Source: Squalus acanthias (taxonomy: Eukaryota). From it: a DNA stretch of 64,000 bases. The stretch covers positions 155,312,001 through 155,376,000 of the forward strand of contig CM059431.1 in assembly GCA_030390025.1 (NCBI GenBank), given 5' to 3'. Positions 1,199 to 61,362 of this stretch are shown here, one piece after another. The translations under genes were made by a program, and so were the position numbers. The notes beneath the pieces were generated by a model. That model saw only the letters and a program-made list of their open reading frames with translations, was not told the origin of the DNA and made no database searches. Numbering within the stretch: position 1 is the stretch's first letter; the number at the start of each line of letters is the position of its first letter.

Positions 1199-1199
1199 T

Positions 1200-1870: not shown

Positions 1871-2092
1871 CAGCGGGCCTCACTGGATTTTACTGGGCAG
1901 CTGTTTGTGTCACACCTGATGTGGAGAGTTGATCGTAACACTCGGGAAATGCTCGATCTCATACCTAACAGCGACTTTATATATTTTTTAACAAGGCAAC
2001 GTTTCCTTCTCATTTTAATATTTCCATCTAACCCTCCTGTTAATTTTATATTTATTACAGTGGGTCAGCGACTGAGGACGCCTGTTAATTCA

Positions 2093-2156
2093 ATGGCTGA
2101 AGATCCAAACAGGAAAGACATTTTTTCCAGAAGCCTGAGCAGGAGCAAGGACCCAG
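2093..2156 (+). CDS. Putative first coding exon, copy 1 (MAEDPNRKDIFSRSLSRSKDP+G); exon 2061-2156
   Basis: Acceptor tttattacag at 2051-2060, ATG 2093, donor cag|gtaggt, 64 nt coding (phase 1). Confidence 0.6.
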
Positions 2157-2399
2157 GTAGGTTCAGAAAAAACTTTAAAAGATAATTTCTGTCCTGACAT
2201 AGGGTCCAGATCTCGTGCAAGAACCTGCAGCTCACACATCAAGAGGGAACTGGACAGGGGCTGAGTAGAAAGAGGGAAGTGAGTGAACATCTAGAGGGAC
2301 ATCGCAGTCAAAGTTGGAGGGAGGCATTGCGTACTGGAACAGTCCAATAGATATCTGGTATTGGGGAATGTAAGGTGGATAGAGACAGTGACTCAGAGG

Positions 2400-2940
2400 A
2401 GTGTCATCCTGAGCAACAGTGTGGTAGCAGGGAGCAGGAGGCCACCCCGAGTGGGGTGAGACGCAGGTGGTGCACTGGAAAAGCAAATCAATAGTGGTGG
2501 GAGACTCTATAGTCAGGGGAATATAAAGACTCGTCTGCAGCCCTGAGCTGGTGCAAAATGATAAGTTGCCTCCCTGGAAGAACATCCTGGAACAGGTGGG
2601 AACATCTCTGGGAAGGAAAGGAGAGCAAAAATTATCAAAGGTTGGAATCAGTAACACGGATAGAAATACGTTTATAGAGGGAATATTGAGACTGAGGCAC
2701 TAAACTAAAGACAAGGCCTCAAGGTGGTGCTCTGTATTGTTTTGCACTGGGCTGCTTAATGAGGAAATATGTGTCAAGTCAATGTGGGACTCCTTGTCTG
2801 GAGTGAGATGGAAGGATTCACGTTGTTGGGGTACTAGAGTGGGTTCGCGGAGAAGGGAAGGGACGGCTACGAACTGAACTCACCAACAATTGTTTTAAAG
2901 AATAGGTGAATGGAGCAGCGGGAAGGGGATCAACTGATAT
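2400..2940 (+). mobile_element. CR1 ORF1 (SGNH/GDSL esterase-like) remnant; repeated at ~14150-14700, 30840-31040, 43860-44410, 53440-53510 + 55347-55830, 61615-62160
   Basis: IVVGDSI(V/I)(R/K)G.DRLVC...LPG motif typical of CR1 ORF1. Confidence 0.7.
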
Positions 2941-3040
2941 GATTTGAGGGTGGGATAGCCAAATGGCCTGTTTCTGTGCTGTATATTTGTATTTCTAAGT
3001 AATACATATGTACACAGATAAGCAATAAGAAGTGAAAAAG

Positions 3041-3205
3041 CAATGTTCCCGCTAGTTTTTTTTTTTGGATGCAGCTCCCTATAACGATCTGCGGGGCCCA
3101 TTCACAATTTCACGCTTGTGCCAAATCTAACATAGAAAAACCGGTAAGCGGCCTGCGCGGGATGTCCAGATAACTGCGCCGCCGTGCAGCTTAGCGGGAA
3201 CGTTG
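3041..3205. mobile_element. 165-bp MITE-like element (copies 16892-17056, 31733-31894, 34348-34510, 47466-47625, 58022-58183)
   Basis: TIR caatgttcccgcta / tagcgggaacgttg; part of the ancestral unit; no TSD visible. Confidence 0.65.
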
Positions 3206-4198
3206 CAGTGGAGGTGAGATAGAGGGGGAGCTGGGGGAAACTCGTGGAGGGTGAAGGTTTGGGTAGATACAAAATAATTCCTTTGATGGTGGAAGTGAAA
3301 ATGTTGATGTAATGAAGGAGGATGTGGGTCCATAGTTGGAGATCAGTGTAAGGAAGGATTTGAATCTGAGTAAAATAGCCGAGGTGGATAAGTGACTCGA
3401 CCCAGAGATAATGCACCCCATATTTTTAAAGGAAATCAGAGGGTAAATAAAATGGACTCTGAACACAGTTTTTCAATCCTCATTTAATATCATGAATGTA
3501 CATCTAGACTGATAGAGCCCAAACAATATCTCTGTTAAAATGGAGACAGAGAGGATCAGCCGGGTAACTGCTGACCAGCTAGACTGTTATTTGTGAGTAA
3601 GCTGTTCGAATCTGTAATTCCAGGTTGAATCAGTAATCATTTAGAGATAAAGCCGAGCCTGGAACAGATAAGATGTAGACAAGTTGTATTTGACCAATTT
3701 GATGCAGCTTTTCTGAGACGTGTCTGTATAGATTTGAAATAGAAAGCACCCATCACACGTGTGCTTTCTGAAGTACATTGGCTCACGATTCGACAGCACC
3801 TCGATTTAATAAATCTCAACCTAGTTTTCAAAACCCTTCATGGGCTCGCCAATCCCTAAACCTCGAGATCTCTGTGATTTTCTAATTCTGGCCTCTTGCG
3901 CACCCCCGAAATGAATAACAACGCCATTGGTGATCATACCTTCTACTGCCATAAAGTCTGGAATTCCTTCTCTCTCATTATGACGCTCCTTAAAACCTAC
4001 CTCTTTGGCCTAGCATTTGGTCACCTGTCCTAATATGTGGCTCGGTATCAAATATTGTTTGATAACGCTCCTGCGAAGTTCCTTGGAACATCTTATTACG
4101 TTAAAAAAGCTATATAAATTAAATCTGTTTTTGCGGAGACTGTAATCTTGCCTCATCAAACCGATAAATCGGGTAATTCGGCTATTCTACCCAGCCAG

Positions 4199-4290
4199 GA
4201 TCTTTGCTGCAAGCTATCTCATTCCAAATCAAACCCTGGATCCTGCAGATAATTTACAGCATTTTCAGCATGTCCACAATCTTCTGCCAG
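4199..4290 (+). other. Conserved 92-nt exon-like block within a unique ~250-bp module; copies at 884, 32910, 36252, 49054, 58431, 63312, truncated at ~18088
   Basis: ccag|GATCTTTG...TGCCAG|gtgagc in this copy. All seven full copies are 92 nt. One frame is rich in C-ending codons (consensus SLLYAISFGISPWILQILYSTFSLSATFCQ). Confidence 0.3.
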
Positions 4291-4375
4291 GTGAGCTAAT
4301 GTGCCATCATGTGGGCTCGGTGCCCTAGAGGACTCTGCCCGCCATCTTGTGCCAGACACGGTGCAATGCCATCTG

Positions 4376-7300
4376 TGGGGTGGGGCTGCGTCCGTGGACA
4401 GTGTTGGGATGGGTGAGTGCAGGGTTGGTCTGGGTGAGTGGGGTGCAGATGTTGGGCTGTGTCAGTGGGTTGTAGGTGTTTGGCTGGTTGGTGGGGAGTC
4501 GGTGTAGCTTTCAAAAGCTCTTAGAATAATTTGTCCGTGACTACACAAAGCACTCTGGGTACAGGTATATTGTGTGTAAGTAAAACAGGTCTATTAAGCA
4601 TTAAGCATCCAGTACAAAGAAGTCATAATTAACAAGGAGTCACAATCTTGTTCGTTTGAGCCTCGGCGTTCCTTCCGAGTGACTGTGGCGCGGTCTCTTT
4701 ATTCTCTTGTTGTGTTCTGTTGACTGAAGCTCGCTTCTCTGGGTTCTTGCTGTGTTCTGTTAACTGAAGCTTCGTCAACTCTGATTAAGCGGTGCGCGCT
4801 GGTTTCAGTGTTAAACATCTGTATCTTTATACCCTTTCTCCTCATTTTGCCTACCTGACAGTAATCAGCTCTCTGACACCTGGTAAATATCCCTACTTTC
4901 CTTGTCAGTCTCCTCAGGACATTAATTGGCCTTGTTGATTCCACTAGGTCTCCCTTTCTGCATAACAAAGTGCCCTTAGCTTTAGATGTTCTCTTTTCAA
5001 AGATCATTTCTCAAGATTTTGTCGAAGCAGACTGTCCATCTTATAGTGGTATTACTGAGGGATGCCCCCAATCCCATTCTCTCTTCTCTAACTCTTATCT
5101 CTTTCCCATAACTTTACCGATTACCACGCCCCTGACAGTCTCCGTAGACTTAGCACTACATTTCATTACTTCAGTAATTGAAAACGAATGTTTTTAGTCA
5201 GGTTGGCATAATTTCCCCCTCCTGCCTTGTTCTCAGCAAGTCGCCATTTTCTACATGGTTCTAGGTTTTTAACATACATTTTCACATATTATAATTGTAC
5301 AAAAATGATTTTAGAATCTTAATAATGTTTACTAAATCATACAGATGCACCGTATCCTACATCTGTGTTGGGCTTGTTCAGTGGGGTGTCGGTGTAGGGC
5401 TGTGTCAGTGGCGTGTCACTTTAGGACGGTTCAGTGGGATGTCGGTGCAGGACTGGGTCAGTGGGATGTTGATGTATGGCTGGGTCAGTGGGGTGTCGGT
5501 TTAGGGCTCGGTCAGTGGCGTGTTCGGTGTTGGGCTGTGTCAGTGGGTTATTGCTGTTGGGTCATTGAGAGTGTTGGTGATGGGCTCGGTCAGTGGGGTT
5601 CGGTGAAGGACTTCGTCAGTCGGGTGACGGTGTTGGGCTGGGTCAGTGGGATGTCGCTGTTGGGTCAATGAGGGTATCGTTGTATGGCTTGGTCAGCGGG
5701 GTGTCGGTGAAGGGCTGAGTCAGGGGGGTGTCAATGTTGAGCTGTTTCAGTGGGGTGCCTATGTAGGGCTGAGTCAGGGGGTTGTCAGTGTTGGGCTGGG
5801 TAAGTGGAGTTTCGGTGTTGGGCTGGGTCAGTGGAGTTTCGGTGTTGGGCTGGGGCAGTGGGGTGTCGGTGTTGGGCTGGGTCAGTGGGCTGTCGGTGTT
5901 GGGCTGGGTCAGTGGGGTGTCGGGGCTTGGTCTGTGGGGGTGTCGGTTTTGTGCTCGGTGAGTGGGGTATCGATCTTGGGCTGGCTCAGTGAGGGATTCG
6001 ATACTACGTCAGTGAGAGATTCTGCGCTGGGTCAGGGAGGTGTCGCGGCTGGGTCAGTGAGGGTGCCGGTGTTGGGCTGGGTCAGTGGGATGTCGGGGCT
6101 GGCCAAGGTCAGTGAGGGATTCGATACTAAGTCAGTGAGGGTTTCGGGGCTGGGTCAGTTAGCATGTCGAGACTGGATCAGTTGGGTATCTGTCGTGGGC
6201 TTGGTCAGTGGTGGTGTCGGATCGAGGCAGTGTCAGTGGAGGGCGGTGCGGGTCTGCGTCAATGAGGGTGATGGGTCTGGGTCAGTGAGGATGTCGTGTT
6301 TGGGTCAGTGGGGGTGTCGGGGCTGCTGCTGTGATGGTTACGGTGTTGGGTCTTTGGAGGTGTCGGGGCTGGTTCAGTGAGGATGTCGGGGTTGGGTCAG
6401 TGGGGGTTTCGCGGATGGGGCTGTGATGTTGTTGGGGCTGAGTCGGTGAAGGTGTCGGGGATGGGTCAGTGAGAGTGTCGGGGCTGTGTCAGTGAGGGTA
6501 TCGGGGCTGGGTCGGTGAGGGTGTCTGGGCTGGGTAAATGAAGTTGTCAGGGCTGAGTCAGTGAGGGTGTCGGGGCTGTGTCAGTGATGGTATCGGAATT
6601 GGGTCGGTGAGGGTGTCGGGGCTGGGTAAGTGAGGGTGTCAGGGCTGTGTCAGTGAAGGTGTCGGGAATGGGTCAGTGAGAGTTTCGGGGCTGTGTCAGT
6701 GAGGCTATCGGGGCTGGGTCGGTGAGGGTGTCGGGGCTGGGTCAGTGAGGGTGTCGTGGCTGGGTCAGGGAGGATGTTGGGACTTGGTCAGTGGGGCTGT
6801 CGGGGTAAAACAGTGAGGCTGTCAGAGCTGGCTCAGTGAGGATGTCAGAGCTGGCTCAGTGAGGATGTCCGTGCTGGGTCAGTGAAGGTGTAGTGGCTGC
6901 TTCAGTGAGGGTGATGCGGGCCTGGTCAGTGAGGGTGCCTGGGCAGAGCAAGTGAGGGTGCCGTGGCTGGATCTGTGAGTGTGTTGGGGCTTGTTCAGTG
7001 AGGGTGTCAGGGCAGGATCAGTGAGGGTGTCGGGGCTGGGTCAGTGAGGGTGTCGGGGTTCGGTCAGTGAGGGTGTCGGAGCTGGGTCAGTAAGGGCGTC
7101 GAGGCTGGGTAATGAGGGTTCCGGAGCTGGGTCAGTGAGGCTGTCGGGGCTGGGTCAGTGAGGGTGTCGGAGCTGGGTCACTGAGGGTGTCGGCACTGGG
7201 TCAGTGAGGGTGTCGGAGCTGGGTCAGTGAGGGTGTCGAGGCTGGGTCAGTGAGGGTGTCGGGGCTGGATCAGTGAGCGTGTCGGAGCTGGGTCAGTGAG

Positions 7301-7770
7301 GGTGTCGCGGCTGGGTCAGTGAGGGTGTCGGGGCAGGGTCAGTGAGTGTGTCGGGGCTGGATCATTGAGCGTGTAGGGGTTGGGTTATGAGGGTTTCGGG
7401 GCTGGGTCAGTGAGGGTGTCGGAGCTGGGTCAGTGAGGGTGTCGGGTCTGGGTCAGTTAATTGTGTCGTGGCTGGGTCAGTGATGGGTGTTGGGGCTCAG
7501 TCAGTGATGGTGTCGGGTCTGGGTCAGTGTGTGTGTCTGGGCTGGGTCTTTTTGGGTTTCGGGGCTGGGTTAGTGGGGGGCGGGGATTGATCAGTGTGGT
7601 TGTTGGATCTGGGTCAGTGGGAGTTGGGCTGGGTCGTTGGGGGGGCCAGTGCTGGGTCGGTGCTTGGCGGGGATGGATCAGTGGGAGTGTTGGGGCTGGG
7701 TCAGTGTGGGTAGTGCTTTGTCGGTTGGGGGGCGGGCTTATCGGTGGGGGGGCGGGGCTGGGTCAGTTGG
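4376..7770 (+). repeat. G-rich minisatellite, 27-mer (gggctgggtcagtggggtgtcggtgtt) grading into 23-mer (ggggctgggtcagtgagggtgtc); interrupted by solo LTR 4503-5361
   Basis: Direct tandem repeats with strong G/T strand bias. Confidence 0.95.
4503..5361 (-). mobile_element. Solo LTR (859 bp) of an LTR retrotransposon/ERV
   Basis: TGTAG...CTACA termini, 4-bp TSD tcgg/tctg. On the minus strand TATAAA (4826-4831) precedes AATAAA (4698-4703). Removing it restores the satellite phase. Confidence 0.8.
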
Positions 7771-8601
7771 ACGGATGAACAACAGCACGTGTTCTGTATT
7801 GGGTCAATGATAGGGCAAGCTCCAGGTTACAGAGCCTCACTGAAAAGAAGATATGTATTTAAGGGTATGCGAGATAAACAAGAGGAAGAAAGGAATTAGA
7901 AGATTTTGTGATAGGGTTAGATGAAGAGGGATGGTAGGATTTTCATGTGATGTATAAACACAGGCATGGACAAGTTGAATGGAATGGACTCTTTCTGAGC
8001 TTTACATTTTGTGTAATTCTGTGTATTAACAAAAGTGAAGTGACGGCATTGCATTTTCTGAAGCAGTTTTGTAAAACAAGGATATCGAAAGTTTTGCTCT
8101 AATTCAGTAACCTGCAACTCGCAAACCCCTCCGGTGGAACTGGGAGATTCCAGTCCCACAGTGAGAGCAGGTGGAATGATCTGTGCAAGTGATATGAGTT
8201 TAACAATCTCTCTACCATTAAACCACAAATGAGACTTGTGTATTTCAGAGGAGGGAGTTTGATCACAGGGATGTGCCCAGTTCAACACGTGGGTGAAGAG
8301 TTAGACATTTTTATCTCCATCTCTAGCTTCACTTTCCCAACAATGTTTTGTCGGCTCTCGAATCTCTGCCCATCTTTCACACAAGGACATGATTGAATCT
8401 CTGACCGCTCCTGCCACAGCACTCAGGTGACAATAATGAAAGTCACAAATGAAACGTTCTATGTCTGTGACCGTGGTAAACTATCCCTCCTCATTCTTCT
8501 TGACCTCTGCAGACTTTACACGGTCGAGCACAACATCATCCAACACCTCTCCCCCGTTTTCCAATTCAGTGCGACTGCCCTCGCTTGGTTGCACTTTTAC
8601 C

Positions 8602-9430
8602 CAGCAACAGAACTCGAGAGCAAGAAAGCAGCTCTGCAGACGCCTTAAGGCTGAGGTCCAACAAAAAACTCGCGATCTAAAGAACAGATGGTGGGTGCAG
8701 AAAGCGCAGGAGATCCAGCAGCTCGCCGACAACCACGGCGTGCGTGGATTCTTTAGCGCAGTCAAGACCAGCTACGGCCCAATCACCCAAGGTCCTAACC
8801 CACTGCTGGCCAAGAATGGGGAAATACTCATCAAGGACAGGGAGGCAGTCAGTGCCCGCTGGAAGGAGCACTTCGAACATCTCCTTACCGAGACTCTGTC
8901 TTCAACGCTAGTGTCCTCAATACCATCTCGCAGCATGCTACCCACCACCATCTCAGCTCAACCCCAGCCGGCATTAGGTTGAAAAGGTCAACCAACAACT
9001 GAAGAACAACAAGGCCTCAGGAGCAGATGGAATCCCTGCCGAGGCACTAAAGCATGGCGGAGAAGCACTACTTTTGCGAATTCATGAACTCATTTATCTT
9101 ATCTGGAAGGAGGAGAGCATGCCATGGGATCTCAAAGACGCCGTAATTGTGACCATTTTCAAGAAAGGTGACAAGTCCGATTTCGGTAATTACAGATGAG
9201 TTTCGCTGCTGTCAGCCACAGGGAAAGTCATCGCAAGAATACTCCTCAATCGCCTTCTCCCAGTGGCTGAAGAGCTCCTCCCAGAGTCGCAATGCAGATT
9301 CCGACCAGTGAGTGGTGCAATGGACATGATCTTCACAGCGCTCCAATGACAATTGAAAAGCAGGGAACAGAACCAACCGCTCTACATGGCCTTCTTCGAC
9401 CGAACAAAGGCCTTTGGCAAGGTCAAACGG
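8602..9430 (+). mobile_element. RTE-clade LINE fragment (linker to start of RT)
   Basis: RDLKNRWWVQKAQEIQQLAD...RWKEHF, KASGADGIPAE, LPESQC, PLYMAFFD. Confidence 0.9.
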
Positions 9431-9711
9431 GAATAGAATCACCAACCAGAACACATCTCCATGAACACATGGACAATGTCACTGACCATAGAGACCTGAG
9501 GGATCACACCCAGCTATATCTTGTGTGTGGATAGATATCCCAGTCATAAACTAACAGAATTTAATATCAAAACTCAACAAATCCAAAATATTAAACAGAA
9601 ATCTGTGAGCAAGTATAATATTATACCGCCAGACTTTATTAAACCTCGTGAAGGATCATTTAATTCATCAATGATCACCTGCTCCATGTATGCCTGCAGA
9701 ATAGTCTCCAA

Positions 9712-10010
9712 CTCTAATACAATGAGGTGGGGACACAGGTTTTTTGTTGACACGTTGGACCCCTTGTGACCCCACCTCATTGTCGTAGCTGTATTTTGCT
9801 GTGTCTTTGAAGTAATGCCTTTCTTGATTGTATCTCTGCCGAGGTGTGATGGAGGGCAGTCAGTAAGATGTACCGTAGCCGTCTGACACTGTACGCTACA
9901 CATGGTTCTCTGTCTATATATGCTCTGCTGATTTGCATTCCTTCACTTTACCTGACGAAGGAGCAGCGCTCCGAAAGCTCGTGATTTCAAATAAAACAGT
10001 TGGACTATAA
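9712..10010 (+). mobile_element. Penelope-like element pseudo-LTR fragment
   Basis: Ends ...acctgacgaaggagcagcgctccgaaagctcgtgatttcaaataaaacagttggactataa; same family as 45093-45240. Confidence 0.7.
9948..9984 (+). ncRNA. Minimal type I hammerhead ribozyme motif
   Basis: uuac CUGACGA a GGAGC-agc-GCUCC GAAA gc UC guga: intact core, 5-bp stem II, palindromic AGCU stem III, CUC triplet. Confidence 0.75.
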
Positions 10011-10265
10011 ACCTATTTCTAATCGCTCACTGTTGCCTCTGCCCAAAGCTCTGGAAATCCGTCCGTGAACCGCTCCGTGGCGCTACCACACTTCCCTCTA
10101 TTAAGATGCACCTTAAAACCTACCTCTTTGACGAAGCATTTGGTCACCCACCCTAATTTATCTTTATGTGGCTCGGTGTCAAATTTTTTGTCTTGCAATA
10201 CTCCATTGGAGTGGTTTGGGATGTTTTATACTTTAAAGGCGCTGTAGAAATAAAAGTTGTTGTGT

Positions 10266-13200
10266 TAAGACAAACATTTGACACCGTGCCACAAAGGAAA
10301 ATTAGTGCAGATGATTAAAAGCTTGCTCAAAGAGATAGGTTTTAAGGAGCGACTAAAAGGAGGAAAGAGAGGTAGCGAGGTGTAGGAGTTTAGGTAGGAA
10401 ATTGCAGAGCTTAGAGTCTTGACAACTGAAGGCCCGGCCACCAAGGGTTGAGCGATTTAATCCGGGATGCTGAAGAGGGCAAATTATATGAGCACATTTA
10501 TCTCGGGGAGGGCAGGCATGAGGCTGGAAGAGATTAGAGGTAGGGAGATGAGAGGCCATGGAGGGAATTGAAAACAAGGGTGAGAATTTTGAAATCGATG
10601 CGTTGCTTAACCGGGATCCTATGTAGGTCAGCGAGCACAGGGGTGATGGGTGAATGTGACTGGGTGCGATTTAGGACACTGGCTGTCGAGTTTTGGATGA
10701 CCTTTAATTTACGTAGTGTAGAACGTGGGTGGCCAGCCAGGAGTGTGTTGGAATATTCAAGTCTACAGTTAACAAAGGCATGGATGAGGCTTTCATAGGC
10801 AGATGTGCTGTTGCAGGGGTGGAGACAGGCGATGTTACGGAGATGTAAATAGGCGGTCTAAGTTATGCCATGGATATGTGGTGGGAAGCTCATTTCAGGG
10901 TAAAACATGACTCCTATGTTGCGAACAGTGTAGTTCTGCCTCAGACAGATGTTAGGGAGAGGAATGGATTCCGTGGCGGAGCACGAAAATAATGACTTCC
11001 CAATATTTAACTGGAGAAAATTTCTGCTCATCCACAACTGGATGTCGGACACGCAGACTGACAATTTAGAGACAGTGGAGGGGTCGACAGAAGTGGTGGT
11101 GAGGTAGAAACGGGTGACGTCAGCGTACATGTGGAAACTGACGTGGTGTTTCGTATGATATTGTCAAGGGGCAGCATGTAGATGCGAAATAGCAGGGGGC
11201 AAAGTATAGATTCCTGGGGAACACCAGATATAACCATGCTGGAGCGGGAAGAGAAGCCATTGTAGATTATTCTATGCCTACGATAGATAAGAATGGAACC
11301 AGCCGCGTGCAGTCCCACCGAGGTGGACGTTTTTGGAAAGGCGTTGGAGGAGTGTGGAGCGGTTAATTTTGTCAAAAGCTGCTGAGAAGTCGAGAAGCAC
11401 GAAGAGGGATAGGTTGTCTTTGTCACAGTCACAAAGTATGTCATTTGTGACTTTGATGACAGCCGTTTCGGTACTGTGGCAGGGGCAGATACCTGATTGG
11501 AGGAATTCAAACATGGAGTTGCAGGAAACATGGGAATGGATTTGGGAGGCGACAACATGTTCAGGGACTTTTTAGCAGAAAGGGAGTTTGTAAATGGGGC
11601 GAAAGTTTACAAGGTCGTTCGAGTCAAGAGTTGTTTGTTTGAGGAGAGGGGTGATGACGGCAGATTTGAAGGAGAGAGGAACAGTACTTGTGGAGAGAGA
11701 ACCGTTAACAATGCCAGCTAACAAAGTAGCTAGAAAAGAAAGTTGGGTGGTTAGCAGTTTGGTGGGAATAGGGTCGAGGGAGCAGGAAGTGGGTCTCATG
11801 GACAAGTTGTGCGCGGAGCGATCAGGAGCAGAGATCGGAGAGAAAATGGAGAAAGATGCAAGTTCAGGGCTAGGGCAGGGGCGAGCCTTAGTTGAAGTTT
11901 GGCCTGTGGATTAGGGGAAGGAAGAGAAGTGGCAGAGGCCGCTGATCGCATGGTCTCAATCTTAGGGACAAAGAAGATCATGAGCTCCTCGCTCTTGTTA
12001 TTGGAGGTGAGGTTAGAGGAGACAGGGGATAAGGTTTGAAGAAGCTGCTTTGCAGTGCAGAATAGAAGCCGGGGTTTAGCTTTGCATTCCTATAATGTTT
12101 GTGGAACAGTGGTCAAATTTGACAGACGAGAGGAGGTCCCGGTAATGCTTTAGGTGGTCCAGCCAGATCTGGCGGAGAAAGGCTAAACCAGTTGTCTGCT
12201 TAATCTGTTCAAGTCTGCGTCTCTTGCAGTTAAGCGAGCGAAGATGAGAGCCGTACCAATTAGAACAGCCAGGGTGAGACAGTGTGATTTTTTTAATTTG
12301 TCACTATAGCATCGAAGGTGGTGGTGAGGGTATGTTTGAGCAGATCGGTAGCTGCGGAAATGTTGTGGTGAATGGAGGGCGAAAGGCTGACCAGTTGGGA
12401 TTTCGTAGGTGCAGTTGTAAGAGAATTGGGAGAGAGTTTACTTTCCAGGGGAGGAAAAAAAATGAAGTATGGTTGGGGGAGAAGGGGGATGTGGGTGGAG
12501 AGTGATAGAAGGAAATGGTCAGTGATGGCTTTTTATGCGATTGACACGAGGAGAGTAGCGAGGCCACGAGAGATGGCAAGGTCGAGGGGGTGACCGTGAA
12601 TATGGGTTGGGGCGTTTATGTGGAGGGAGAGATTAAGGGAGTTCGCAGGTCAGTGAACTCAGTGGAGAGAGATCATGATGAAATGAGACGAATGTTGATA
12701 TCACCAAGGCTGAGAAGTCGCGTGTTGCAGATGCTGAGGGAGGAGAGCAGTGAAGCTATTTCGGCGATAAAATTATAATGGTACTTGGGTGGGCGATAGA
12801 GAACGAGAATTTTAAATGAGGTGAGAATTTTGAAATATGGTGAGATGCTCAAAGGATGACATCGTGGCGGATGAGTACGGGACATCAAAAGGTGTGATTT
12901 GGTGATGAGAGCCACGCTGTCGCCATGGCTGTCTGGGCTGGGCAAGTGGTGGAATATATAGCCAGGCGGGGAGGCTTAATTTAAGGGTAAGGTTTCATCA
13001 ACCCTCAGCCAAGATTCCGTCAGGGCCATGATGTCGATGAAATCATTCATGATAAGTTCATGGATGGTTGGATCTAGTTCGCAAGAGAATGAACGTTCTG
13101 GAGAGAGATGTGGAGAGGTTCAATGAAGTCTAACCCACTGCCAGTGTCCACAGGGTCAGCGCTGGGAGGGGTGAGTTGGACGGAAAGGAGAATGACAAGA

Positions 13201-13590
13201 TTAGCCCCCAGCGTACGTACCGGGCGGGAAGGTCGGCGAAAGAGTAGGCTAATACAGTTGGGGTTGCTGCTCGTGAGGAGGCCGCAACGAGTGCCAAGGA
13301 AGGCCTTTCGGAGGATGCCAAGAGAGGCACAGAGGTAAGCTGTAGACTTATTTAAGAGGGATTCAAGCCTGGGAAGTCAGCAGGAGAGTACGAATGTCGA
13401 AGAGTAATGAAGGGTAGGTGTAGGGATTTGGAAGGGCAGTGTTTACGAGAGAGGATAGATGAAAGGAGGCATAATGAAGCAGAGAGCAATCAGAGAATGA
13501 TAGAGTGAAAAGGAAAAGGGGAGAAAAAAGTGGAAATAGAAGTGAACGGCTCGGGTCTGCAGCGCCAGCCAACATGTTCATGCAAGATCA
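10266..13590 (-). mobile_element. Degenerate near full-length L2 LINE (APE endonuclease + RT)
   Basis: Fragments KILVLYRPP...LGDIN (APE), QSG..CHSTETA..VTNDIL...LLDFSAAFD, GVPQES, MYADV (RT); many frameshifts and stops. Confidence 0.9.
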
Positions 13591-13834
13591 GCGTGCCTCA
13601 CTGGTTTTCACTTGGCAGCTGTCTGTGTCACACCTGATGTGAAGTGTTGGTCGTAACACTCGGGAAATGCTCGATCCCGGAGATAACAGCTGCTGTACTG
13701 ATGGGGGAGAAGGGACTTGATATCATGTTTAAAAAGGCAGCGTTCTCCTTCTCATTTTAATATTTCCGTCTAACACACCTCTTAATATTATATTTATTAC
13801 AGAGCATCAGAAACTGGGAATGCCTGTTCCCACC

Positions 13835-13898
13835 ATGGCTGAAGGTCCAAACAGGGGAGAAGATCCAGCATCATCCAAAAGACTAAGTGTGGACACAG
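13835..13898 (+). CDS. Putative first coding exon, copy 2 (MAEGPNRGEDPASSKRLSVDT+G); exon 13803-13898; recalled as resembling the N-terminus of shark NACHT-LRR (NLR)-like proteins
   Basis: Acceptor tttattacag, perfect Kozak ccaccATGg, perfect donor cag|gtaagt, 64 nt coding. The NLR resemblance is from memory, not a search. Confidence 0.7.
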
Positions 13899-24679: not shown

Positions 24680-24769
24680 CGGTTAAGGAGATCAACAACA
24701 ATAACTTGCATTTATATAACGCTTCTAACGTAGTAAAACATCCTAAAGGCGCTTCACAGGAGAGTCCTG

Positions 24770-48489: not shown

Positions 48490-48555
48490 ATTGATGTAAT
48501 GGAGGAGGATGTGGGTCCAAATGTAGAGATCAATGTAGAAAAGGATTTGGATAGA

Positions 48556-49229: not shown

Positions 49230-49620
49230 TGTGTGGTGTGGCTGGGTAAGTCGATTGTCAGTGTCGGGCTGGGTAAGTGCGGTGTTGGGTTGGGTGAGTG
49301 GGGTGTTGGGCTGGGTGAGTGCGGTGTTGGGCTGGGTGAGTGGGGTGTTGGGATAGGTGAGTGCGGTGTTGGGCTGGGTGATCAAGGTGTTGGACTGGGT
49401 GAGTGCGGTGTTGGGCTGGGTGAGTGGTGTGTTGGGCTGGGTGAGTGCGGTGTTTGGCTGGGTGAGTGCGGTGTTGGGCTGGGTGAGTGGGGTTTCGATA
49501 TTGGGTTGGTTCAGTGGGCTGTCGGTGTTGGGCTGGGTAAGTGGGTTGCCGGTGTGGGGCTGAGTCAGTGAGGGAGTCGGGGCTGGTCAGTGAGGGTTTC
49601 GGGCTGGGTCAGTGAGGGTT
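49230..49620 (+). repeat. G-rich minisatellite, 21-mer variant (gggctgggtgagtgcggtgtt)
   Basis: Tandem 21-mers at ~49265-49490. Confidence 0.9.
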
Positions 49621-49689
49621 TCTTACAATACTCCTGTGCAGTGCCTTGGGACGTTTTAGTACATTATAGTAGCTATAGAAATAAAAGTT

Positions 49690-52600: not shown

Positions 52601-52880
52601 CGGAGAATGCCAAGATAGGCACAGAGGGAAGCTGTAGAATTATCTAAGAGGGAGCCAAGGCTTGGAAGTCAGCAACAGGATAGGAAGGTCGCAGAGTATT
52701 GACAGATTGTTGTAGGGATTTGGAAGTGCAGTGTATCTGAGGGAGGAAAGATGAACGGACGCATAATGACAAGAGAGCAATCGGGGAGGGATAGAAATAA
52801 AAGGAAAAGGGAGAAAAATGTGGAAAAAAAAGTGACCGTTTCGGGTTCGCAGCGCCAGCCAACATGCACACGCAAGATCA
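49690..52880 (-). mobile_element. Degenerate L2 LINE (U6 copy)
   Basis: QSGFHHCHSTETA...LLVLLDLSAAFDMIDH; YRPP...LGDFNLHLN. Confidence 0.9.
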
Positions 52881-53124
52881 GCGGGACTCACTGGTGTTCA
52901 CTGGGCAGCTGTCTGTGGCACATCTGGTGTGGAGAGTTGATCGTAACACTCGGGAAATGCTCAATCCTGGAGATAACAGCTGGTGTACTGATGGGGGAGG
53001 AGGGACTAAATATCATGTTTAACAAGGCAGCGTTCTCCCTCATATTTTAATATTTACATCTAACCCTCCTGTTAGTATTATTTTTATTATAGTGCGTCGG
53101 AATCTGAGAAAGCCTGTCACCACC

Positions 53125-53188
53125 ATGGCTGAAGCTCCAAAGAGGGCAGAAGATTTGTCTAGGATCCTGAGAAGCAGCAATGACGCAC
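53125..53188 (+). pseudogene. First-exon copy 5 (MAEAPKRAEDLSRILRSSNDA) with donor GT->AT
   Basis: Acceptor tttattatag, ccaccATGg, 64 nt, followed by ataggt in place of gtaggt. Confidence 0.5.
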
Positions 53189-53510
53189 ATAGGTTCAGAA
53201 AATACTTTTAAATGTAATTTCTGTCCTCAAAAAAATCCAGATCCCGTGCAAGAACGTGCAGCTCACACAGGAAGATGGAACAGGTCAGGGGCTGAGTAGA
53301 AAGAGGGAAGTGAGTGACCATCTAGAGGGACATCGCAGTCACAGGTGGATGTAGACCCTGAGTACTGGAACTGTCCAATCGATAGCTGGTATTGGGGACT
53401 GTAAGGTGGATAGAGAGAGTGACTCAGAGGAGCGTCTTCCTGAGCATCAGTGTGGTACAAGGGAGCAGGAGGCCACCCCGAGTGTGATGAGAGGCAGGTG
53501 CGGCACATGA

Positions 53511-55346
53511 AAAGACAGTAAGAGCTTCTACGGGTATATACAAAGGAAGGGATTAGCTAAGGTAAACGTTGGTCGCCTAGAGGTTGAGTCTGGGGAATTA
53601 ATAATGGGAAACAGGGAAATGTTGGAAAATTTGTACAAATGTTTTGTATTTCTTCACGGGAGTAGACACTAAAAGCATACCAATAATGGATAATTAAGGG
53701 ATTTTTGGGATGGCGGGGGGAACTTAAAATAATTGCTATCACGAGAGAGAAAGTACTAGGCAAACTAATGGGACGAAAGGTGGACAAGTCCCCTGGCTCT
53801 GTTGGCCTGCATCCTAGAATCTTAAAAGAGGTGGCTACAGAGATAGTGAATGCATTGATTGTAATCTACCAACATTCCCTGGATTCTGGAGAGGTTCAAG
53901 CAGACTGGAAAACCGCAAATGTAACGCCTCTATTTAAGAAAGGAGGGAAACATTAAGCAGGCAACGATCGACTTGTTAGCCTAACATCTGTCATTGGGAA
54001 AATGCTGGAGTCCATCATTAAGGAAGTGATAGCTAGACATTTAGAAAATTATAATATAGTCAAGCAGAGTCAGCATGGTGTTCTGAACGGGAAATCATGT
54101 TTGAGGTTGAGCATAAAGGGGAAACAGTAGATGTCGTGCATTTAGATTTCCAGAAGGCATTCGATAAGTTGCCACATAAAACGTTACTATGTAAGAGAAG
54201 AGCTCACGTGGTTGGGGGCAATATATTAGCACGGAAACAGGATTGGATAACTAACAGAAAACAGTGAGTCGGGATAAATGGGCAATATTCAGGTTGACAA
54301 ACTGTAACTAGTGGGGTGCCGCAGGGATCAGTGCTGGAATCACAACTATTTACAATCTATATTTATGACTTGGATGAAGGGGTTGAGTTTAATGTAGCCA
54401 AATTTGATGATGATACAAAGATTAGGTTGGAAAGCAAATTGTGTGCAGAACGCAGAGAAACACCAACTGGATATAGATATGGCAATTGAGTGGGCAGAAA
54501 TCTGGCAGCTGTAGTTTAATGTGGGAAAATGTGTGGTTGGAAGGACTTTGGTAGCAAAAATAAAAAAGCAAATTATTATTTAAATGGGGAGAGATTACAA
54601 AATGCTGAGGTACAGAGGATCTGGAAGTCCTTGTACATGAATCACAAAAAATAGCATGCTGGTACAACACTTAATTAGGGAGGCAAATGGAGTGTTGGTC
54701 TTTATTGCAAATGGAATGGAGTATAAAAGTAGGCAAGTCCTGTTAAAACTTTGCTGGGCGTTGGTGAGACCACACCTGGAGAACTGCGTACAGTTTTATT
54801 CTCCTTATTTAAGGAAGGATGTACTTGCATTGGAGGCATTTCAGAGAAGCTTCACGAGGTTGATTCCGGAGATAAAGGGGTTGTCTTATGAAGAAAGTTT
54901 ATGCATGTTGGGCCTATACTCATTGGAGTTTAGAAGAATGAGAGGGCATCTTATTGAAACATATAAGATACTGAAGGGGCTTGACAGGTTAGACGCAGAG
55001 AGAATATATTCCCTCGTGGCGGTAATCTAGAACTAGTGGGAATAATTTCAGAATAAGGAGGCACACTTTTAAATCGGAAATGAGGAGGAATTTATTTTCT
55101 TAGCGGATCGTGAATCTTTGGAATTCCCTTCCCCAGAGAGCTGTGCTGTCTGCGTCATTGAATATATTTAAGGTGAAGAAAGACTGATTTTCGAGCGATA
55201 ATAGTGTCAAGGGTTACGGGGAGTGGGCAAGGAAGTAGAATTGAGGCCAAGATCAGATCAGCCATGATCTTATTGAATGGCGGAGCAGGTTCGAGGGGCC
55301 AAATGACGTACTCCTGCTCCTCCGTCTTATGCTATGTTCTTATGTT
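53511..55346 (+). mobile_element. Second CR1 insertion (5'-truncated, degenerate), specific to U6
   Basis: KVDKSPG.VGLHPRILKE, DWKTANVTPLFKKG, LYSLEFRRMRG; ttcttatg tail; splits the ORF1 remnant. Confidence 0.9.
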
Positions 55347-56419
55347 TAGGAAAATGAGATCAATAGTGTTCGGAGATTCTATAGTCAGGGCAAGAGACAG
55401 CCTCGTCTGCAGCCCTGAGCAGGTGCCAAATGGTAAGATGCCTACCTGGTGCTAGAGATTAGAACATCCTGGCACCGGTGGGAACATCTCTGGGAAGGAA
55501 AGGAGAGCAGAAATAACACATGGTCGGAATCAGTACCACAAATTGAAATACGTTTATAGATGGATTATTGTGACCGAGGCACTAGACTAAAGACAAAGCC
55601 TCAAGATGGTGATCTCTGGATTGATATGCACTGGACAAATTAATGAGGGAAATATGAGGCAGGTCAATGTGGGGCTGCTTGGCTGGAGTAAGAGGCAAGG
55701 GTTCAAGTTGTTGGGGGAGTAGAGTGAGTTCGGGGAGAAGGGAAGGGGCGGCCGCGGTCTGAAACCACCAACCACATCGGTTTCACAGAATAGGTGAATG
55801 GAGCAGTGGGAAGCTATCAACTGATATGACTGTAGGGTGGGAATTATCCGCTTGTGAGGCTACAGAGCGGAATTAACAAACTGTTGGAGCTGCAGCAGAA
55901 TATTTATGAAATAGTGAAAATTAATAGCTGGAATAAGGAAGGTTGCTGTCTAGCACTGAGAGATGAATTGACTTTGTTTAAAAAAAATGTACAATGAAAA
56001 GTATCAACATTCCAATGAATTGTATTTAGGATTGACTGTTATTCCTGCAAATGTACAAATCATTCCAATGACATTTGGAAAGTTAGAAGTATGAGAGATG
56101 TGTTGCAGTATCTATAGGACAGGGCCTGGGATTTCACTGCACTTAGAGAAATGTACCTGGCCATAATATTTTGAGGAGAGAAAAAAAAATTGTGGACGGC
56201 AGAATTAATAAATGGTTCCAGGACAGCGCGAGGAGAACAATAAAACAAGTGCATTTCTATAGCATATTTAACGTTGTAAAACGTCCTAAGGCGCTTCACA
56301 GGAGCGTTATCAAACATAATGTGACACGAGCCACGTAAGGAGATATTCGGACAGGTGACCAAAAGCATCTGCAAAGAGATAGTTTTAAAGGTGTGTCTCA
56401 AAGCAGGAGAGAGATGGTT

Positions 56420-57990
56420 TGAACACAAGAACGTTCCTGGAAGTTCTATTAAGATAGAATCCGCGCATTTTAAAAGAACATAGGGAGGAGGTACTATTAC
56501 AACAATTGAATAATTCGTTCGAAAAAGGTGTAATGCTGGAGGACTAGCAGGTGGCTAACGTTATAACTATATTTAAGAAGGGACATAGAACATATCTAGG
56601 AAATTATAAACCAGTAGCTTAACATCAGTGGTAGGAAAAATTATGGAATCTGTATTAAAAGAGAAGATGGAAAAAAATCTGGAAACCAAAAGTTTAATAA
56701 GGATCAGTCAATATGGATTTCAAACGGGAAAGTCTTGCTTGACCAGCTTCATTGAATTCATGGAAGAGGGATTAGAGAGAGTAGATAGGGGCAATGTAGT
56801 AGATTTAATATATCAAGATTTCTAAAAGGCTTTTGCTTAGGTGCCACATAATAAACTAATGAATAAGTTGAGAGCATGAGGGGTCGGGGGTCAAGCAGCA
56901 GAATGCATAGCGAGGTGTCTGCAAGACAGAAATCAGAGAGTAGGGGTAAAGGGTAGCTATTCAGATTGGCAGAGTTGGATAGTGGTGTTCCACAAGGATC
57001 ACTGCCAGGATAACTGTTCACAATTTATATTAACGATTTAGACTTTAGAATCAAAAACACAATTTCTAAATTTGTGGGGAACACCAAATTCGGAGAAATA
57101 TTCAATACAGAGGAAGACTGCAAGAAATTACAGAAAGACATTCGTAAACTTGCAGTTTGGGCATTTCATTGGCAAATAAATTTCAACATAAATAAATATG
57201 ATGTATTACATTTTGGTAAGAAAAATAAGGAGTTCACATATTACTTAGAACATAAGAATCTAAATGTTGTAGAGGAGCAAAGGGATCTCAGAGTACAAAT
57301 ACACAAATCATTAAAAGTTACGAAGCAGGTCAATAAGGCCATAACAAAAGCAAACCAAACACGAGTTTTTATTTGTAGAGGGATAGAATTGAAAATCAGA
57401 GAATTTCTGTTAAGCTAATATCTAACATTGGCTAGGCCACACTTGGAGTACTGTGTATGTTATGGTCGCCATGTTTCGAAAAAGCATATAGAGGCAATGT
57501 CGTAGGTGCAAAAATTATTTACAAGGATGATACCAAAATTGTGAGGATATACGTTTGTGGAAAGGTTGAACAGGCTGGTTCTCTTTCCTCCTGAAAAGAG
57601 AGGGTTGAGGGCTAACCTAATGGAAGTCTTTAAAATTATGAAAGGTTTTGTTACAGTAGACAGAGTGTTTCCACTTGAGGTTAAGAGCAAAACTAGAGGC
57701 CATCAGTATAAGATAGGCGCCAGAAATCTAATAGGGAATTCAGAAGAAACATCTTTTCCCAAAAAGTGATGAGAATGTGGAACTCTCTACAACAGGGAGA
57801 GGTTGAAGCGAATAGTATAGATGCATTGAAGGGGAAGCTAGATAAGCCTATGAGAGAGAAGGGAATAGAGGGTTATGCTGATAGACAGATGAGGAAGGAT
57901 GGGAGGAGGCTCGAGTGGAGCATAGATGGATTGGTTGGGCCAAATAGCCTGTTTCTGTGCTGTATATTTATAATTCTATGTAATCCATAT
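56420..57990 (+). mobile_element. Degenerate CR1 RT + 3' end (U6)
   Basis: SQYGFQTGKSCLTSFIEF, LRANLMEVFKIMKG. Confidence 0.85.
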
Positions 57991-58607
57991 GTACACATTT
58001 AAGCAATAAGAAGAGTATAAGCAATGTTCACCCTATTTTTTTTTGAGTGTGGCTCCCTTTAACGGTCTGCAGGGCCCATTCACAATTTGACGTTTCTGCC
58101 AAATATACCATAGAAAAGCCGGTAAGCGCTCTGCGCGGGATCTCCAGACAGCTGCGCAATCGTGCAGCTTAGCGGGAACCTTGCATTAGACGTGAGATCG
58201 AGCGGGAGCTGTGGGAAACTCATGGAGGGTGAAGGTTTGGGGAGATACACAATATTTACTTTGATGTTAGAAGTGAAAATGTTGATGTAATTGAGGAGGA
58301 TGTTGAGGTGGGTAAGTTACTGGGCCCAGAGATAATGCACTCCAGGCTATTAAAGGAAATCAGAGGGGTGATAAAATGGACTCTGACCTCAATTTTTCAT
58401 TCTCATTTAATATCAGAAATGTACAGCCAGGATCTTTGCTGTACGCCATCTCATACGGAATCAGTCCCTGGATCCTGCAGATATTGCAGAGGACATTCCG
58501 CTTGTCCGCAACCTTCTGCCAGGCGAGCTAAAGTGCCATCCTGTGTGCTCGGTGCCCTAGAGTACTCTGCCCGCCCTTTTGTGCCAGACAAGGTGCATTG
58601 ACATCCT

Positions 58608-58757
58608 GTTGGGTGGGGCTGGGTCCGTGGAATGTCAGTGTTGAGCTGGGTGAGTGGGATGTCGGTGTGGAGCTGGGACAGTGAGGGTGTCGGGACTGGT
58701 CAGTGAGGGTGATGGGGTTGGGTCAGTGAGGGTATCGCGACTGGGTCAGTGAGGGAG
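58608..58757 (+). repeat. G-rich minisatellite (short)
   Basis: Same family. Confidence 0.85.
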
Positions 58758-58829
58758 TCTTACAATACTCCTGTGCAGTGCCTTGGGACGTTTTAGTACG
58801 TTAAAGGCCCTATACAAATACAAGTTGTT

Positions 58830-61060
58830 GTTATAAGACCAAAATTTGTTACTGTGCCACATAAGGAAAAATTAGCGCAGATGACTAAACGTTTGGACAA
58901 ACAGGTAGGTTTTAAGGAGCAACTTAAAGGAAGAAATAGTGGTAGAGAGGCGGAGAGGTTTAGGGAGGGAATTTCAAAGCTTTGGGCCTTGGCAACTGAA
59001 TGCACGGCCACCAATGGTTTTGCGAATATAATCACAGATGCACAAGAGGGCTGAATTACAGGAGCGCATCTATCTCTGGGTGGCGGGGGGTGAGGCTGGA
59101 AGAGATTAGAGGTAGGAAGCTGCGAGGGAATTGAATTGAAGGGTGAGAATTTTGAAATCGAGGCGTTGCTTATCCGGGATCCCATGTCTCTTCATTTTAG
59201 GCAGTCCCTCGGTACCGAGGATTACTTGCTTCGTCACTAAAAATGAGTTCTCAGCTGACTGATGAGTCTAATGATTCTATGTTTCAGTTTTAGGTGGGGC
59301 AGACGATGGTTGAAGGCGGGGATGGGTGGGGTGCTTGGGTTGACGTGCGCTCCTTCTGCTGTCTGTGCTTACCTTCCGCTTGCTCCCGGCGAAGAGACTC
59401 GAAGTATTCGGTGCCTTCCTGGTTGCCAGTCTTCCACTTTGTCTGGTCTTGGGCCAGGGATTTCCAGGTGTCGGTTGGGATGTTGCACATTTTCAAGGAG
59501 GCTTTGAGTCTCTCCTTGAAGCGTTTCCTCTGCCATCCTGGCTCTCTCTTGCCGTGTCGGTGTTCCGAGATGAGCGCTTATTTTGGGAGTCTCGTGTCGG
59601 GCATGCGGACGATGTGGCCGTCCATCGGAACTGATCGAGCGTGTTCAAAGCTTCAATGCTGCGGATGCGGTCCTGAGCGAGAACACTGACGTTGGTGCGC
59701 CTATCGTGCCAATGGATTTGCATGATCTTGCGGAGGCAGCGTTGGTGGTACCTCTCCAGAAATTTGCGGTGCCTGCTGTACATGGTTCATGTCTCTGAAG
59801 CATACAGGAGTGCGGGTATCACTACTGCTCTTTTGACCAATTGCTTGGTGCTGGGTTTGAGGTCCTGGTCTTCAAACACTCACTTCTTCAGTCGAACGAA
59901 GGCTGCACTGGCACACTGAAGGCGGTGTTGGAATTCGTCATCGACGCCCTTGTTGACAGTCGGGTCCGAGTTATGGAAAGTGGTCCGCATTGTCCAAGGT
60001 CAGCGAGCACAGGCGTGATGGGTGAATGGGACTTGGTGCGAGTTAGGAAATGTCCGTGAATATGGGTTTGGGAGTTTACATGGAGAGAGAGAATAAGGGA
60101 GTTTCCAGTGCAATGAACTCAGAGGAGAGAGACCATGATGAATTGAGATGCAGGTTGAAGTCACCGAGGATGAGAAGTCGCGTGTTGCAGATGCTGAGGG
60201 CGGAGAGCAGTGAAGCTATCTCTGTGACAAAATTATAATGGTACTTGGGTGGGCGATATTGAAGGAGAATTTTAAATGAGGTGAGCGTTGTGGAATAAGG
60301 TGATTTGCTCAATGGAGGAGAAAATGGCGGAGGAGTACGGGAACAGACCAAGGTGTGATTTGGTAATGAGAGCCGCACTGTCGCCATGCCTGTCTGGGCT
60401 GAGCAAGCGGTGGAATGTATAGCCAGGCGGGTAGGGTTCATTTGAGAGTAAGACGTCATAAACCCTCAGCCAAGTTTCCGTCACGGCCATAATGTCCATG
60501 CAATCGTCCACGGTAAGCTTATGGATGACAAGAACCTTGTTTGCAAGGGAATAGACATTCTGGAGAGAGTTGCGGAGAGATTCGGTGATGGCTCACCACT
60601 GCCAGTGTCCAGAGTGTCAGCGCTGGGAGTGGTGCGTTGGACGGGAAGGAAATTGGCAAGATTGGCCCCCAGCGGGCGAGCTGGACGGGAAGGTCGGCGA
60701 AAGAGTAGAATAATACAGTTGGGGTTGATGCTCGTGAGGAGGCAGCAACGAGTGCCACCGTGGGCCTTTCCGAGGATGCCAAGACAGGAACAGAGGAAAG
60801 CTTTAGCGTTATCTAAGAGGGAGTCAAGCCTGGGAAGTAAGTAGGAGAGCAGGAAGGTCGGAGAGTGATGAAGGGTTTGTGTAGGGATTTGGAGGTGCAG
60901 TGTAAGAGAGAGAGGAGAGATGGAAGGAGTCATAATAACAGGAGAGAGCGATCAGCGAGGGATTGAGAGAAAAGGAAAAGGGGGGGGGGGGGAAGTGGAA
61001 ATGTAGGTGTACGGTGCGGGTCCGCAGCGCCAGCCAACATGCACAAGCAAGATCAGCGGG
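58830..61060 (-). mobile_element. Degenerate L2 LINE (U7 copy) with RT region deleted and an RTE inserted
   Basis: DIMAVTETWL, YRPP, LILGDFNLHLN; junction near 60048 skips the RT. Confidence 0.85.
59188..59996 (-). mobile_element. RTE-clade LINE 3' fragment
   Basis: LERYHQRCLRKIMQIHW; splits the L2 sequence cccatgt|aggtcagcgag. Confidence 0.9.
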
Positions 61061-61298
61061 ACTCACTGGTTTTCACTGGGCAGCTGTCTGTGTCACACCT
61101 GATGTGGAGTGTACATCGTAACACTCGGGAAATGCTCGATCCCGGAGCTAACAGCTGGTGTACTGATGGGGGATGAATGACTTGAGATCATGTTTACCAA
61201 GGAAGTGTTCTCCTTCACATTTAAATATTTCCATCTAATCCTCCTGTTAATATTATATTTATTAAATGCGTCGGAATCTGGGAACGCCTGTCAACACC

Positions 61299-61362
61299 AT
61301 GGCTGAAGCTCCAAACAGGGGAGCTGATTTTTCCAGGAGCCTGAGCAGGAGCAAATACGCAG
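61299..61362 (+). pseudogene. First-exon copy 6 (MAEAPNRGADFSRSLSRSKYA+G) with lost acceptor AG
   Basis: acaccATGg, 64 nt, donor cag|gtaggt intact; upstream tttattaaa replaces tttattacag. Confidence 0.5.

What the first reader, a model, noticed from the sequence alone, without database searches (positions are those of the whole stretch)
2061..61362. Array of six hypervariable, frame-conserved start-codon exons with no gene body in the window
Seen: each unit that keeps this module has an AT-rich acceptor, ~32 nt of UTR, ATG GCT GAA and a phase-1 donor. Coding lengths are 64, 64, 70, 76, 64 and 64 nt, so all are 3n+1 with in-frame indels and no stops. Peptides differ strongly (MAEDPNRKDIFSRSLSRSKDP / MAEGPNRGEDPASSKRLSVDT / MAEIPGWIKDDLNKRIMIRSQDT / MAEAPKRAEDLSRILRSSNDA / MAEAPNRGADFSRSLSRSKYA), while the intron flanks (ttaatattatatttattacag; gtaggttcagaaaatactttaaaatataatttctgtcctga) stay well conserved. 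Three copies have all signals intact; three have one lesion each (ATG, donor or acceptor). Inference: either interchangeable variable first exons spliced to shared downstream exons, as in clustered protocadherin and UGT1 loci, or rapidly diversified relics of a multigene family.
Basis: partly seen in the sequence, partly recalled or inferred. Interest (0 to 1): 0.8.

Follow-up and report, generated by a model that had tools for sequence, protein, structure and literature searches.

The report
Amplified, fast-evolving shark NLR leader exons
The six exons are part of a nine-copy tandem array of the short leader exon of a large shark innate-immune sensor (NLR) family, lying upstream of an open sensor gene just outside the window; their protein sequence has changed about twice as fast as the surrounding DNA without losing frame, so they were likely spliced in series into a predicted floppy, diversified arm.

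Summary
The array has nine copies, three of them outside the window. Each is the 96-nt leader exon of the shark 'NLRP3-like' family (57 of 120 homologues begin MAE). The '32-nt UTR' is in frame, so the exon is a phase 1-1 cassette. A gene body does exist, 33-127 kb past the last copy: 34 exons from the first copy to the LRRs are phase-compatible and open (about 2,270 aa).

The exons differ by 0.34-0.36 per site against 0.19 for the repeat unit. The excess is nonsynonymous (omega 1.9, P=0.017; 55 versus 3 derived codons) and specific to the real frame. One contig joins a paralogous copy's donor to a copy's acceptor, which favours serial splicing over protocadherin-like alternative first exons. 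No transcript of this window's copies was seen, so relics of past selection remain possible.

The closest precedent is the ~30-aa N-terminal repeats of zebrafish NLRs.

The parts
2061..2156 (+). E1: 96-nt phase 1-1 copy of the NLR leader exon; AG, ATG (2093) and GT intact
   Evidence: 14 N / 4 S changes in codons 1-20
13803..13898 (+). E2: 96-nt copy, closest to the family's usual leader; intact
   Evidence: 2 N / 1 S
30488..30589 (+). E3: 102-nt copy (+6 nt), intact; no close duplicate (next best match 81%)
   Evidence: 17 N / 0 S
43500..43607 (+). E4: 108-nt copy (+12 nt); ATG lost, AG/GT and frame kept, so usable as an internal exon
   Evidence: 13 N / 1 S
53093..53188 (+). E5: 96-nt copy, donor GT lost; would be skipped without changing frame
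61267..61362 (+). E6: 96-nt copy, acceptor AG lost; would be skipped without changing frame
1..64000 (+). Tandem units of about 5-17 kb holding the exon, its intron remnant, old LINE fragments and a G-rich 21-27-bp minisatellite. The array continues outside the window (E0 -3451, E7 69287, E8 82181). It is followed by 4 half-CARD/tail exon pairs (115.7-130.1 kb), 8 two-exon death folds (142.2-200.9 kb), a NACHT exon (205.7-207.4 kb) and 2 LRR exons (208.9-209.5 kb). It is preceded by a further leader copy (-81.3 kb) and 5 death folds (-63.1 to -13.9 kb).
3250..3750 (+). Intron segment that in ordinary family genes lies about 230 nt before the first death-fold exon; the unit breaks off after it, in a LINE fragment (likely the duplication junction; inferred)
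   Evidence: matches C3361 and C29 just upstream of exon A
5365..7711 (.). G-rich minisatellite of the unit (also 18138-22497, 33080-34121, 36454-36644, 49261-49622, 58613-58755, 63530-63998)

Best explanation
The modules are tandem copies of the 96-nt, phase 1-1 leader exon of the expanded shark NLR family, and they are likely spliced in series, as skippable in-frame cassettes, into a predicted disordered arm ahead of the death folds of the open NLR gene downstream; their frame-specific amino-acid divergence likely reflects diversifying selection. Shown: exon identity, symmetric phase, open frames, an open and phase-compatible downstream body, and the nonsynonymous excess. Seen once, for a paralogue: a module-to-module joint. 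Inferred: that this window's copies are transcribed and translated; that unequal crossing-over amplified the gene's 5' segment; that internal copies no longer need their ATG and that copies lacking AG or GT drop out harmlessly; and that microbes drove the selection on an exposed, basic (20% K+R) arm.
For: Identity: 57 of 120 listed shark homologues begin MAE, and residue 22 is D in 49 of those 57, matching a phase-1 join to the death-fold exon. In C3361, C29 and C7:142.5 Mb the order is module, death-fold exons, NACHT, LRR. Frame: 58 of 59 modules (some identical duplicates) are 3n long and stop-free over the whole exon. Four longer variants on C3366 are 144, 144, 144 and 153 nt, one with a stop. 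0 of 14 flank indels, but 2 of 2 exon indels, are multiples of 3. Body: 34 exons are open and in phase (donors of the 199-nt B exons read). Recent duplicates of the array also sit ahead of open NACHT exons. Selection: 0.179 versus 0.095 differences per site, Fisher P=3e-8 with copies treated as independent. Omega is 1.94 with synonymous rate 1.01x flank, P=0.017. There are 55 N versus 3 S derived codons, where the null expects 9.1 S, P=0.010. N/S is 1.77 with 0 stops in frame, against 0.89 and 0.91 with 4 stops each in the other frames. Serial use: a contig of run X3 joins a divergent module's exon end to a module start (table 5c). Its 30 inserted letters match 1 of 59 modules exactly, and all 4 genomic copies of that exon end are followed by an intron. 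8 annotated proteins read the pre-ATG part as coding. AlphaFold gives the leader pLDDT below 30, followed by a six-helix bundle.
Against: The joint is one contig in 1 of 3 runs whose RNA status is a guess. It concerns a paralogous two-module locus, and the length of its downstream side was not shown. A back-spliced circle or an unassembled intronless copy would look the same. The best-fitting loci look damaged: C7:139.7 Mb has a broken NACHT, and the second module on C867 has a pre-ATG stop. Splice sites (lost in 2 of 9) and ATG (lost in 2 of 9) are kept no better than the roughly 33% and 26% loss expected from the flank rate (my arithmetic). Ordinary heads also fit omega 2.6, because their synonymous rate is low (0.26x flank; set chosen by similarity), so omega alone is unreliable here. 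Among recent duplicates the N excess is not significant: 42/267 versus 8/94.5 sites, P=0.11. The pre-ATG omega alone has P=0.08. A stray NACHT-end remnant at 131-132 kb suggests the array was joined to the 8-death-fold body by a deletion, so the pairing may be secondary. The tests rest on 20-23 codons.
Confidence: 0.55

Rival explanations
1. Relics of past function. The copies diversified under selection earlier, but they are now untranscribed or skipped leftovers of amplified gene 5' ends in a rearranging cluster.
For: Signal retention is no better than neutral (arithmetic). The recent-duplicate N excess is not significant. Neighbouring NLRs are often broken. The duplicates lead into three different bodies.
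Against: All 29 array and array-duplicate copies are stop-free and in frame. P(no stop in nine) is 0.04-0.12 under neutrality. The whole 34-exon chain is open.
Confidence: 0.28
2. Protocadherin/UGT1-type alternative starts. Each unit has its own promoter and non-coding first exon, and one leader per transcript is spliced to the shared body.
For: The units are whole 5' gene segments; 7 of 9 keep the ATG in a good context; a shared body exists. A segment present in most units ends in a strong donor-like site at the start of the minisatellite.
Against: The donor I first suspected at 4291 is not conserved. Pre-ATG codons diverge and stay open like the rest. ATG-less copies keep their splice sites and frame. 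The one joint seen is module to module.
Confidence: 0.12
3. Mutational artefact. The exon is a local hotspot, or suffers multi-nucleotide changes or conversion, which mimics selection in never-functional copies.
For: Doublet changes are enriched in the exon: 15 of 59 runs against 16 of 162 in the flanks. Ordinary heads also give omega above 1.
Against: 10 of 15 doublets start at codon position 1. The signal vanishes in the other frames. The aligned part has only one CpG. The synonymous rate equals the flank rate.
Confidence: 0.05

Closest known systems
Expanded elasmobranch 'NACHT, LRR and PYD domains-containing protein 3-like' NLRs (NCBI names); probably the NLRP-related expansion of PMC8455134 (passages and section 40 read; identity of clades not tested)
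   Same: Same leader exon, phase and position before the death-fold exons. The family's NACHT exon is up to 89% identical to Heptranchias perlo models.
   Different: Most annotated members have one conserved leader (mean 70% identity across species, against 53% among five 64-nt copies of this one array). None of the 159 NLR proteins listed showed several leaders in my pattern scans.
N-terminal ~30-aa peptide repeats of zebrafish NLR-B30.2 groups 2-4 (10.1101/022061, passages read)
   Same: Expanded fish NLR family with extensively duplicated short N-terminal repeats that are shuffled between members.
   Different: Homology was not tested. The passages describe two main repeat types, not copy-by-copy positive selection. 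The shark units each carry 5-17 kb of DNA.
Rapidly evolving protease-bait linker of NLRP1 (PMC7857732, passages read)
   Same: Disordered N-terminal segment of an NLR with a nonsynonymous excess.
   Different: No FIIND or C-terminal CARD was found in the scanned family members, so NLRP1's degradation mechanism cannot be assumed. Here the diversity lies in tandem exons.
Variable-first-exon clusters, UGT1 and protocadherin (PMC3325998, PMC1885805; search listing and start of abstracts only)
   Same: Tandem variable exons upstream of shared exons.
   Different: Those are first exons, each with its own promoter. These have acceptors, are symmetric, and encode only about 32 aa.

Membership tests
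Shark NLRP3-like NLR leader exon | Peptide matches the N-terminus of annotated members | tested here: met
Shark NLRP3-like NLR leader exon | Phase-1 donor, upstream of death-fold, NACHT and LRR exons on the same strand | tested here: met
   NACHT E=5e-33 for the downstream exon
Shark NLRP3-like NLR leader exon | Downstream two-exon domain is a CARD-type death fold | tested here: inconclusive
   Homologue P0126 has a Pfam CARD hit (E=3e-10) and the model of P0043 has six helices; single exons give no CARD hit
Shark NLRP3-like NLR leader exon | This window's copies are spliced into an NLR mRNA | tested here: inconclusive
   Only a paralogue's joint was seen
Variable-first-exon cluster (UGT1/protocadherin) | Tandem variable exons with shared downstream exons | tested here: met
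   (by phase and openness only)
Variable-first-exon cluster (UGT1/protocadherin) | Variable exons are first exons, without an acceptor | tested here: not met
   Conserved polypyrimidine tract and AG in 8 of 9
Variable-first-exon cluster (UGT1/protocadherin) | Own promoter per exon | not testable with these tools
   Needs CAGE or 5' RACE; one search found no clear first exon
Variable-first-exon cluster (UGT1/protocadherin) | One variable exon per mRNA | tested here: inconclusive
   One module-to-module joint at a paralogue argues against
NLR N-terminal repeat arm (zebrafish NLR-B30.2 type) | Several ~30-aa repeats in frame before the core | tested here: met
   (genomic; translation not shown)
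NLR N-terminal repeat arm (zebrafish NLR-B30.2 type) | Sequence homology to the zebrafish repeats | not tested
   No zebrafish sequences were fetched; the profile search returned one homologous hit among 3, a sawshark model
NLRP1/CARD8 tripwire sensors | FIIND with C-terminal CARD | tested here: not met
   No such Pfam hit in P0043, P0125 or P0126; none in the exon map
NLRP1/CARD8 tripwire sensors | Cleavage by pathogen proteases activates signalling | not testable with these tools
   Needs experiment
Transposable element | Exon matches a TE | tested here: not met
   It matches NLR N-termini, and tiles over it hit only one strand in the 664-kb region; no TE library was available

The most novel reading that the evidence does not exclude
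The array is a combinatorially spliced, positively selected bait arm. Up to seven different cassettes sit between a 5-CARD block and an 8-CARD-NACHT-LRR block in one sensor of about 2,900 aa. Microbial proteases or other enzymes acting on the arm would release or reposition the CARD chain, and shark NLRs would gain ligand diversity by tandem exon amplification rather than by whole-gene duplication.
Probability: 0.15. Interest if true: 0.8.

Novelty: new variant of a known kind. Interest (0 to 1): 0.52.

Why it matters
Within this shark NLR family the leader is conserved when it heads a gene, but it diversifies at amino-acid level once tandemly amplified. That points to a specific, testable site of host-microbe conflict in a large and barely studied immune family. 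It also shows exon-level amplification of three different modules (leader, half-CARD pair, CARD pair) building NLRs of over 2,000 aa. If the copies are dead, it remains a record of past selection in an ordinary birth-and-death cluster.

Tried and rejected
RNA search for window 13600-14100: no RNA holder listed. Laying three runs on window 1-20000 was dominated by repeats, and the tables were cut; no joint from E1 or E2 themselves was shown.

A conserved first-exon donor at 4291 was rejected. My first idea that the 115-129 kb exons are mutually exclusive was rejected, because each is followed by a phase 0-1 partner exon. Those half-CARD exons show no acceleration (omega 1.07, P=0.72).

Signal-peptide or membrane N-termini of some multi-CARD homologues gave no match in the region. 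Sawshark model P0160 has three internal copies of the exon, but its spacer resembles an intronic repeat, so it is weak support; the other two hits are unrelated. IQ-TREE omega values could not be parsed, so I wrote a codon model. Far-flank divergences are inflated by misalignment and were not used. The NACHT part of the AlphaFold model has low confidence; its fold search only returned NLRP3/NOD2-type entries. Pfam has no family for the module.

Paper searches listed no paper describing this array; the library lacks most subscription papers, and no supplements were read.
Full report
Observation. All six exons are at the stated places, with the stated lengths, peptides and lesions. Each lies in a 5-17-kb tandem unit. 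The neighbouring assembly adds three more copies, at -3451, 69287 and 82181 on the window's axis. Each exon is 32 nt plus 64, 70 or 76 nt, which makes it 96, 102 or 108 nt, phase 1 at both ends, and open throughout.

Identity. The genome search found 415 first-look candidates for the module and 481 for NACHT, often on the same contigs. At C3361, C29 and C7:142.5 Mb the module precedes death-fold, NACHT and LRR exons. A NACHT exon retrieved 1,159 proteins; the 120 listed are shark proteins, nearly all named NLRP3-, NLRP12- or NLRC3-like. 57 of the 120 begin MAE, and 49 of those have D at residue 22, as a phase-1 join predicts. The module is therefore the family's leader exon, and the genome is a shark's by homology. 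In a model of P0043 the leader is unstructured (pLDDT below 30) and is followed by a six-helix bundle.

Context. The window holds no downstream NLR exon, but a 664-kb map does. In order it shows a leader copy at -81 kb, five two-exon death folds, the nine-copy array, four half-CARD/tail exon pairs, eight death folds, an open NACHT exon and two LRR exons, all on the + strand. Omitting E5 and E6, the 34 exons from E0 to LRR2 are in phase and stop-free. That gives 2,264 aa as cut, or about 2,270 with the B exons at their true 199 nt. With the upstream block there are 45 exons and about 2,900 aa; one upstream B exon lacks its distal GT. A NACHT-end remnant at 131-132 kb suggests a deletion joined the array to this body. 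Part of the array is duplicated at about 95% identity near C7:158.3, 158.8 (twice) and 159.2 Mb, each time ahead of another NLR with an open NACHT frame. The body at 158.7 Mb has intact exons; the one at 159.1 Mb has a frameshift in a death-fold exon. Two- and multi-module heads also occur at C7:139.7 and 142.5 Mb, C867 and C3366.

Evolution. Among the nine copies the exon differs at 0.34-0.36 per site and the adjacent 60 nt at 0.13-0.20; the unit as a whole differs at 0.186. In the unambiguously aligned first 62 nt the rate is 0.179 against 0.095 in the flanks, for all four bases. A codon model on the flank tree gives omega 1.94 and a synonymous rate equal to the flank rate (P=0.017); the pre-ATG codons alone give 1.88 (P=0.08). 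Distinct derived codons are 55 nonsynonymous and 3 synonymous, where the null expects 9.1 (P=0.010; 0.001 jointly with no stops), and 10 of 15 doublets start at codon position 1. The excess disappears in the other two frames. It is concentrated in E1, E3, E4 and E7. 58 of 59 modules are in frame and open. 0 of 14 flank indels but both exon indels are multiples of three.

Results against selection. The ordinary heads, chosen by similarity, also give omega 2.6 through a low synonymous rate. Recent duplicates give 42/267 versus 8/94.5, P=0.11, and their N rate does not exceed my flank estimate, which misaligned copies inflate. AG/GT and ATG are kept no better than chance. The sample is 20-23 codons.

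Splicing. No RNA holder was listed for E2. Laying three 'RNA?' contig sets on window 1-20000 gave mostly repeats, but table 5c lists a joint in run X3 from 13864 back to 13799 with 30 letters between. Those letters equal the 3' part of the divergent module in L041 and differ at 11 or more positions from the other 58 modules. The last four exon bases equal the last four intron bases, so I read the joint as that module's donor joined to a module's first base. The four genomic copies of this exon end are all followed by GTAGGTTC, so the joined form is not among them. This supports serial splicing at a paralogue. It is a single contig, could be a back-splice, and its likeliest source loci look damaged. 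Eight annotated proteins also translate the pre-ATG part.

Mechanism. The most likely history is that unequal crossing-over amplified the gene's 5' segment up to just before the first death-fold exon (inferred). Because the exon is symmetric, extra copies splice in series, internal ATGs are dispensable (E4, E8), and copies lacking AG or GT (E5, E6) are skipped in frame. The product would be a basic, S/P/T/G-rich arm (20% K+R) that diversified under selection, plausibly from microbial enzymes. That last step is an analogy to the NLRP1 linker (PMC7857732, passages); the FIIND machinery is absent here. I put this at 0.55, relics of past selection at 0.28, alternative starts at 0.12 and artefact at 0.05.

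Known versus new. An NLRP-related expansion is described in whale shark (PMC8455134, passages and section 40). Duplicated ~30-aa N-terminal repeats are described in zebrafish NLRs (10.1101/022061, passages). Searches listed nothing on a positively selected leader-exon array; supplements were not read. The scan's earlier notes cover poly-CARD and half-CARD arrays in this cluster; look-ups by place and by sequence returned nothing. Verdict: real feature, new variant of a known kind, interest 0.52.

Noticed in passing
window axis 115732-130091 (G000:C7 155.43-155.44 Mb): Four two-exon units (half death-fold exon, phase 1-0, plus a tail exon, phase 0-1), all open with in-frame deletions; similar units occur at C7:158.19 Mb, and matching half exons at 280 kb (frameshifted) and 357 kb.
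   Followed up: yes
window axis 142218-209490: Open NLR body with eight tandem death folds, about 50% identical in NACHT to Chiloscyllium, Mustelus and Scyliorhinus models, two of which have 3 and 5 death folds.
   Followed up: partly
window axis -63073 to -13875: Five death folds after a leader copy, with no NACHT before the array; they may be the front of one giant gene.
   Followed up: partly
G000:C7 158.82-158.85 Mb: The duplicated array here follows a death-fold exon and lies about 17 kb from the nine-CARD array of note e1-7939782, so that 'sensor-less' array may reach the intact NLR at 158.7 Mb through the leader copies. The DNA between was not fetched.
   Followed up: partly
G000:C3366 2.00-2.11 Mb (L225-L232): A separate leader-exon array with in-frame expansions to 144 and 153 nt.
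   Followed up: partly
window 4100-4330 and copies: A unit segment after the LINE 3' end holds a TATA-like motif, an open frame of about 70 codons in some copies (read by eye from the alignment) and a donor-like site at the start of the minisatellite; its role is unknown.
   Followed up: no
P0125, P0126, P0132: Several multi-CARD models carry signal-peptide-like or membrane-like segments; nothing similar was found in this region.
   Followed up: partly
window axis -245 to -242 kb: A neighbouring NLR's NACHT exon is interrupted by a young retroelement with 97-99% identical copies at 109-120 kb.
   Followed up: no
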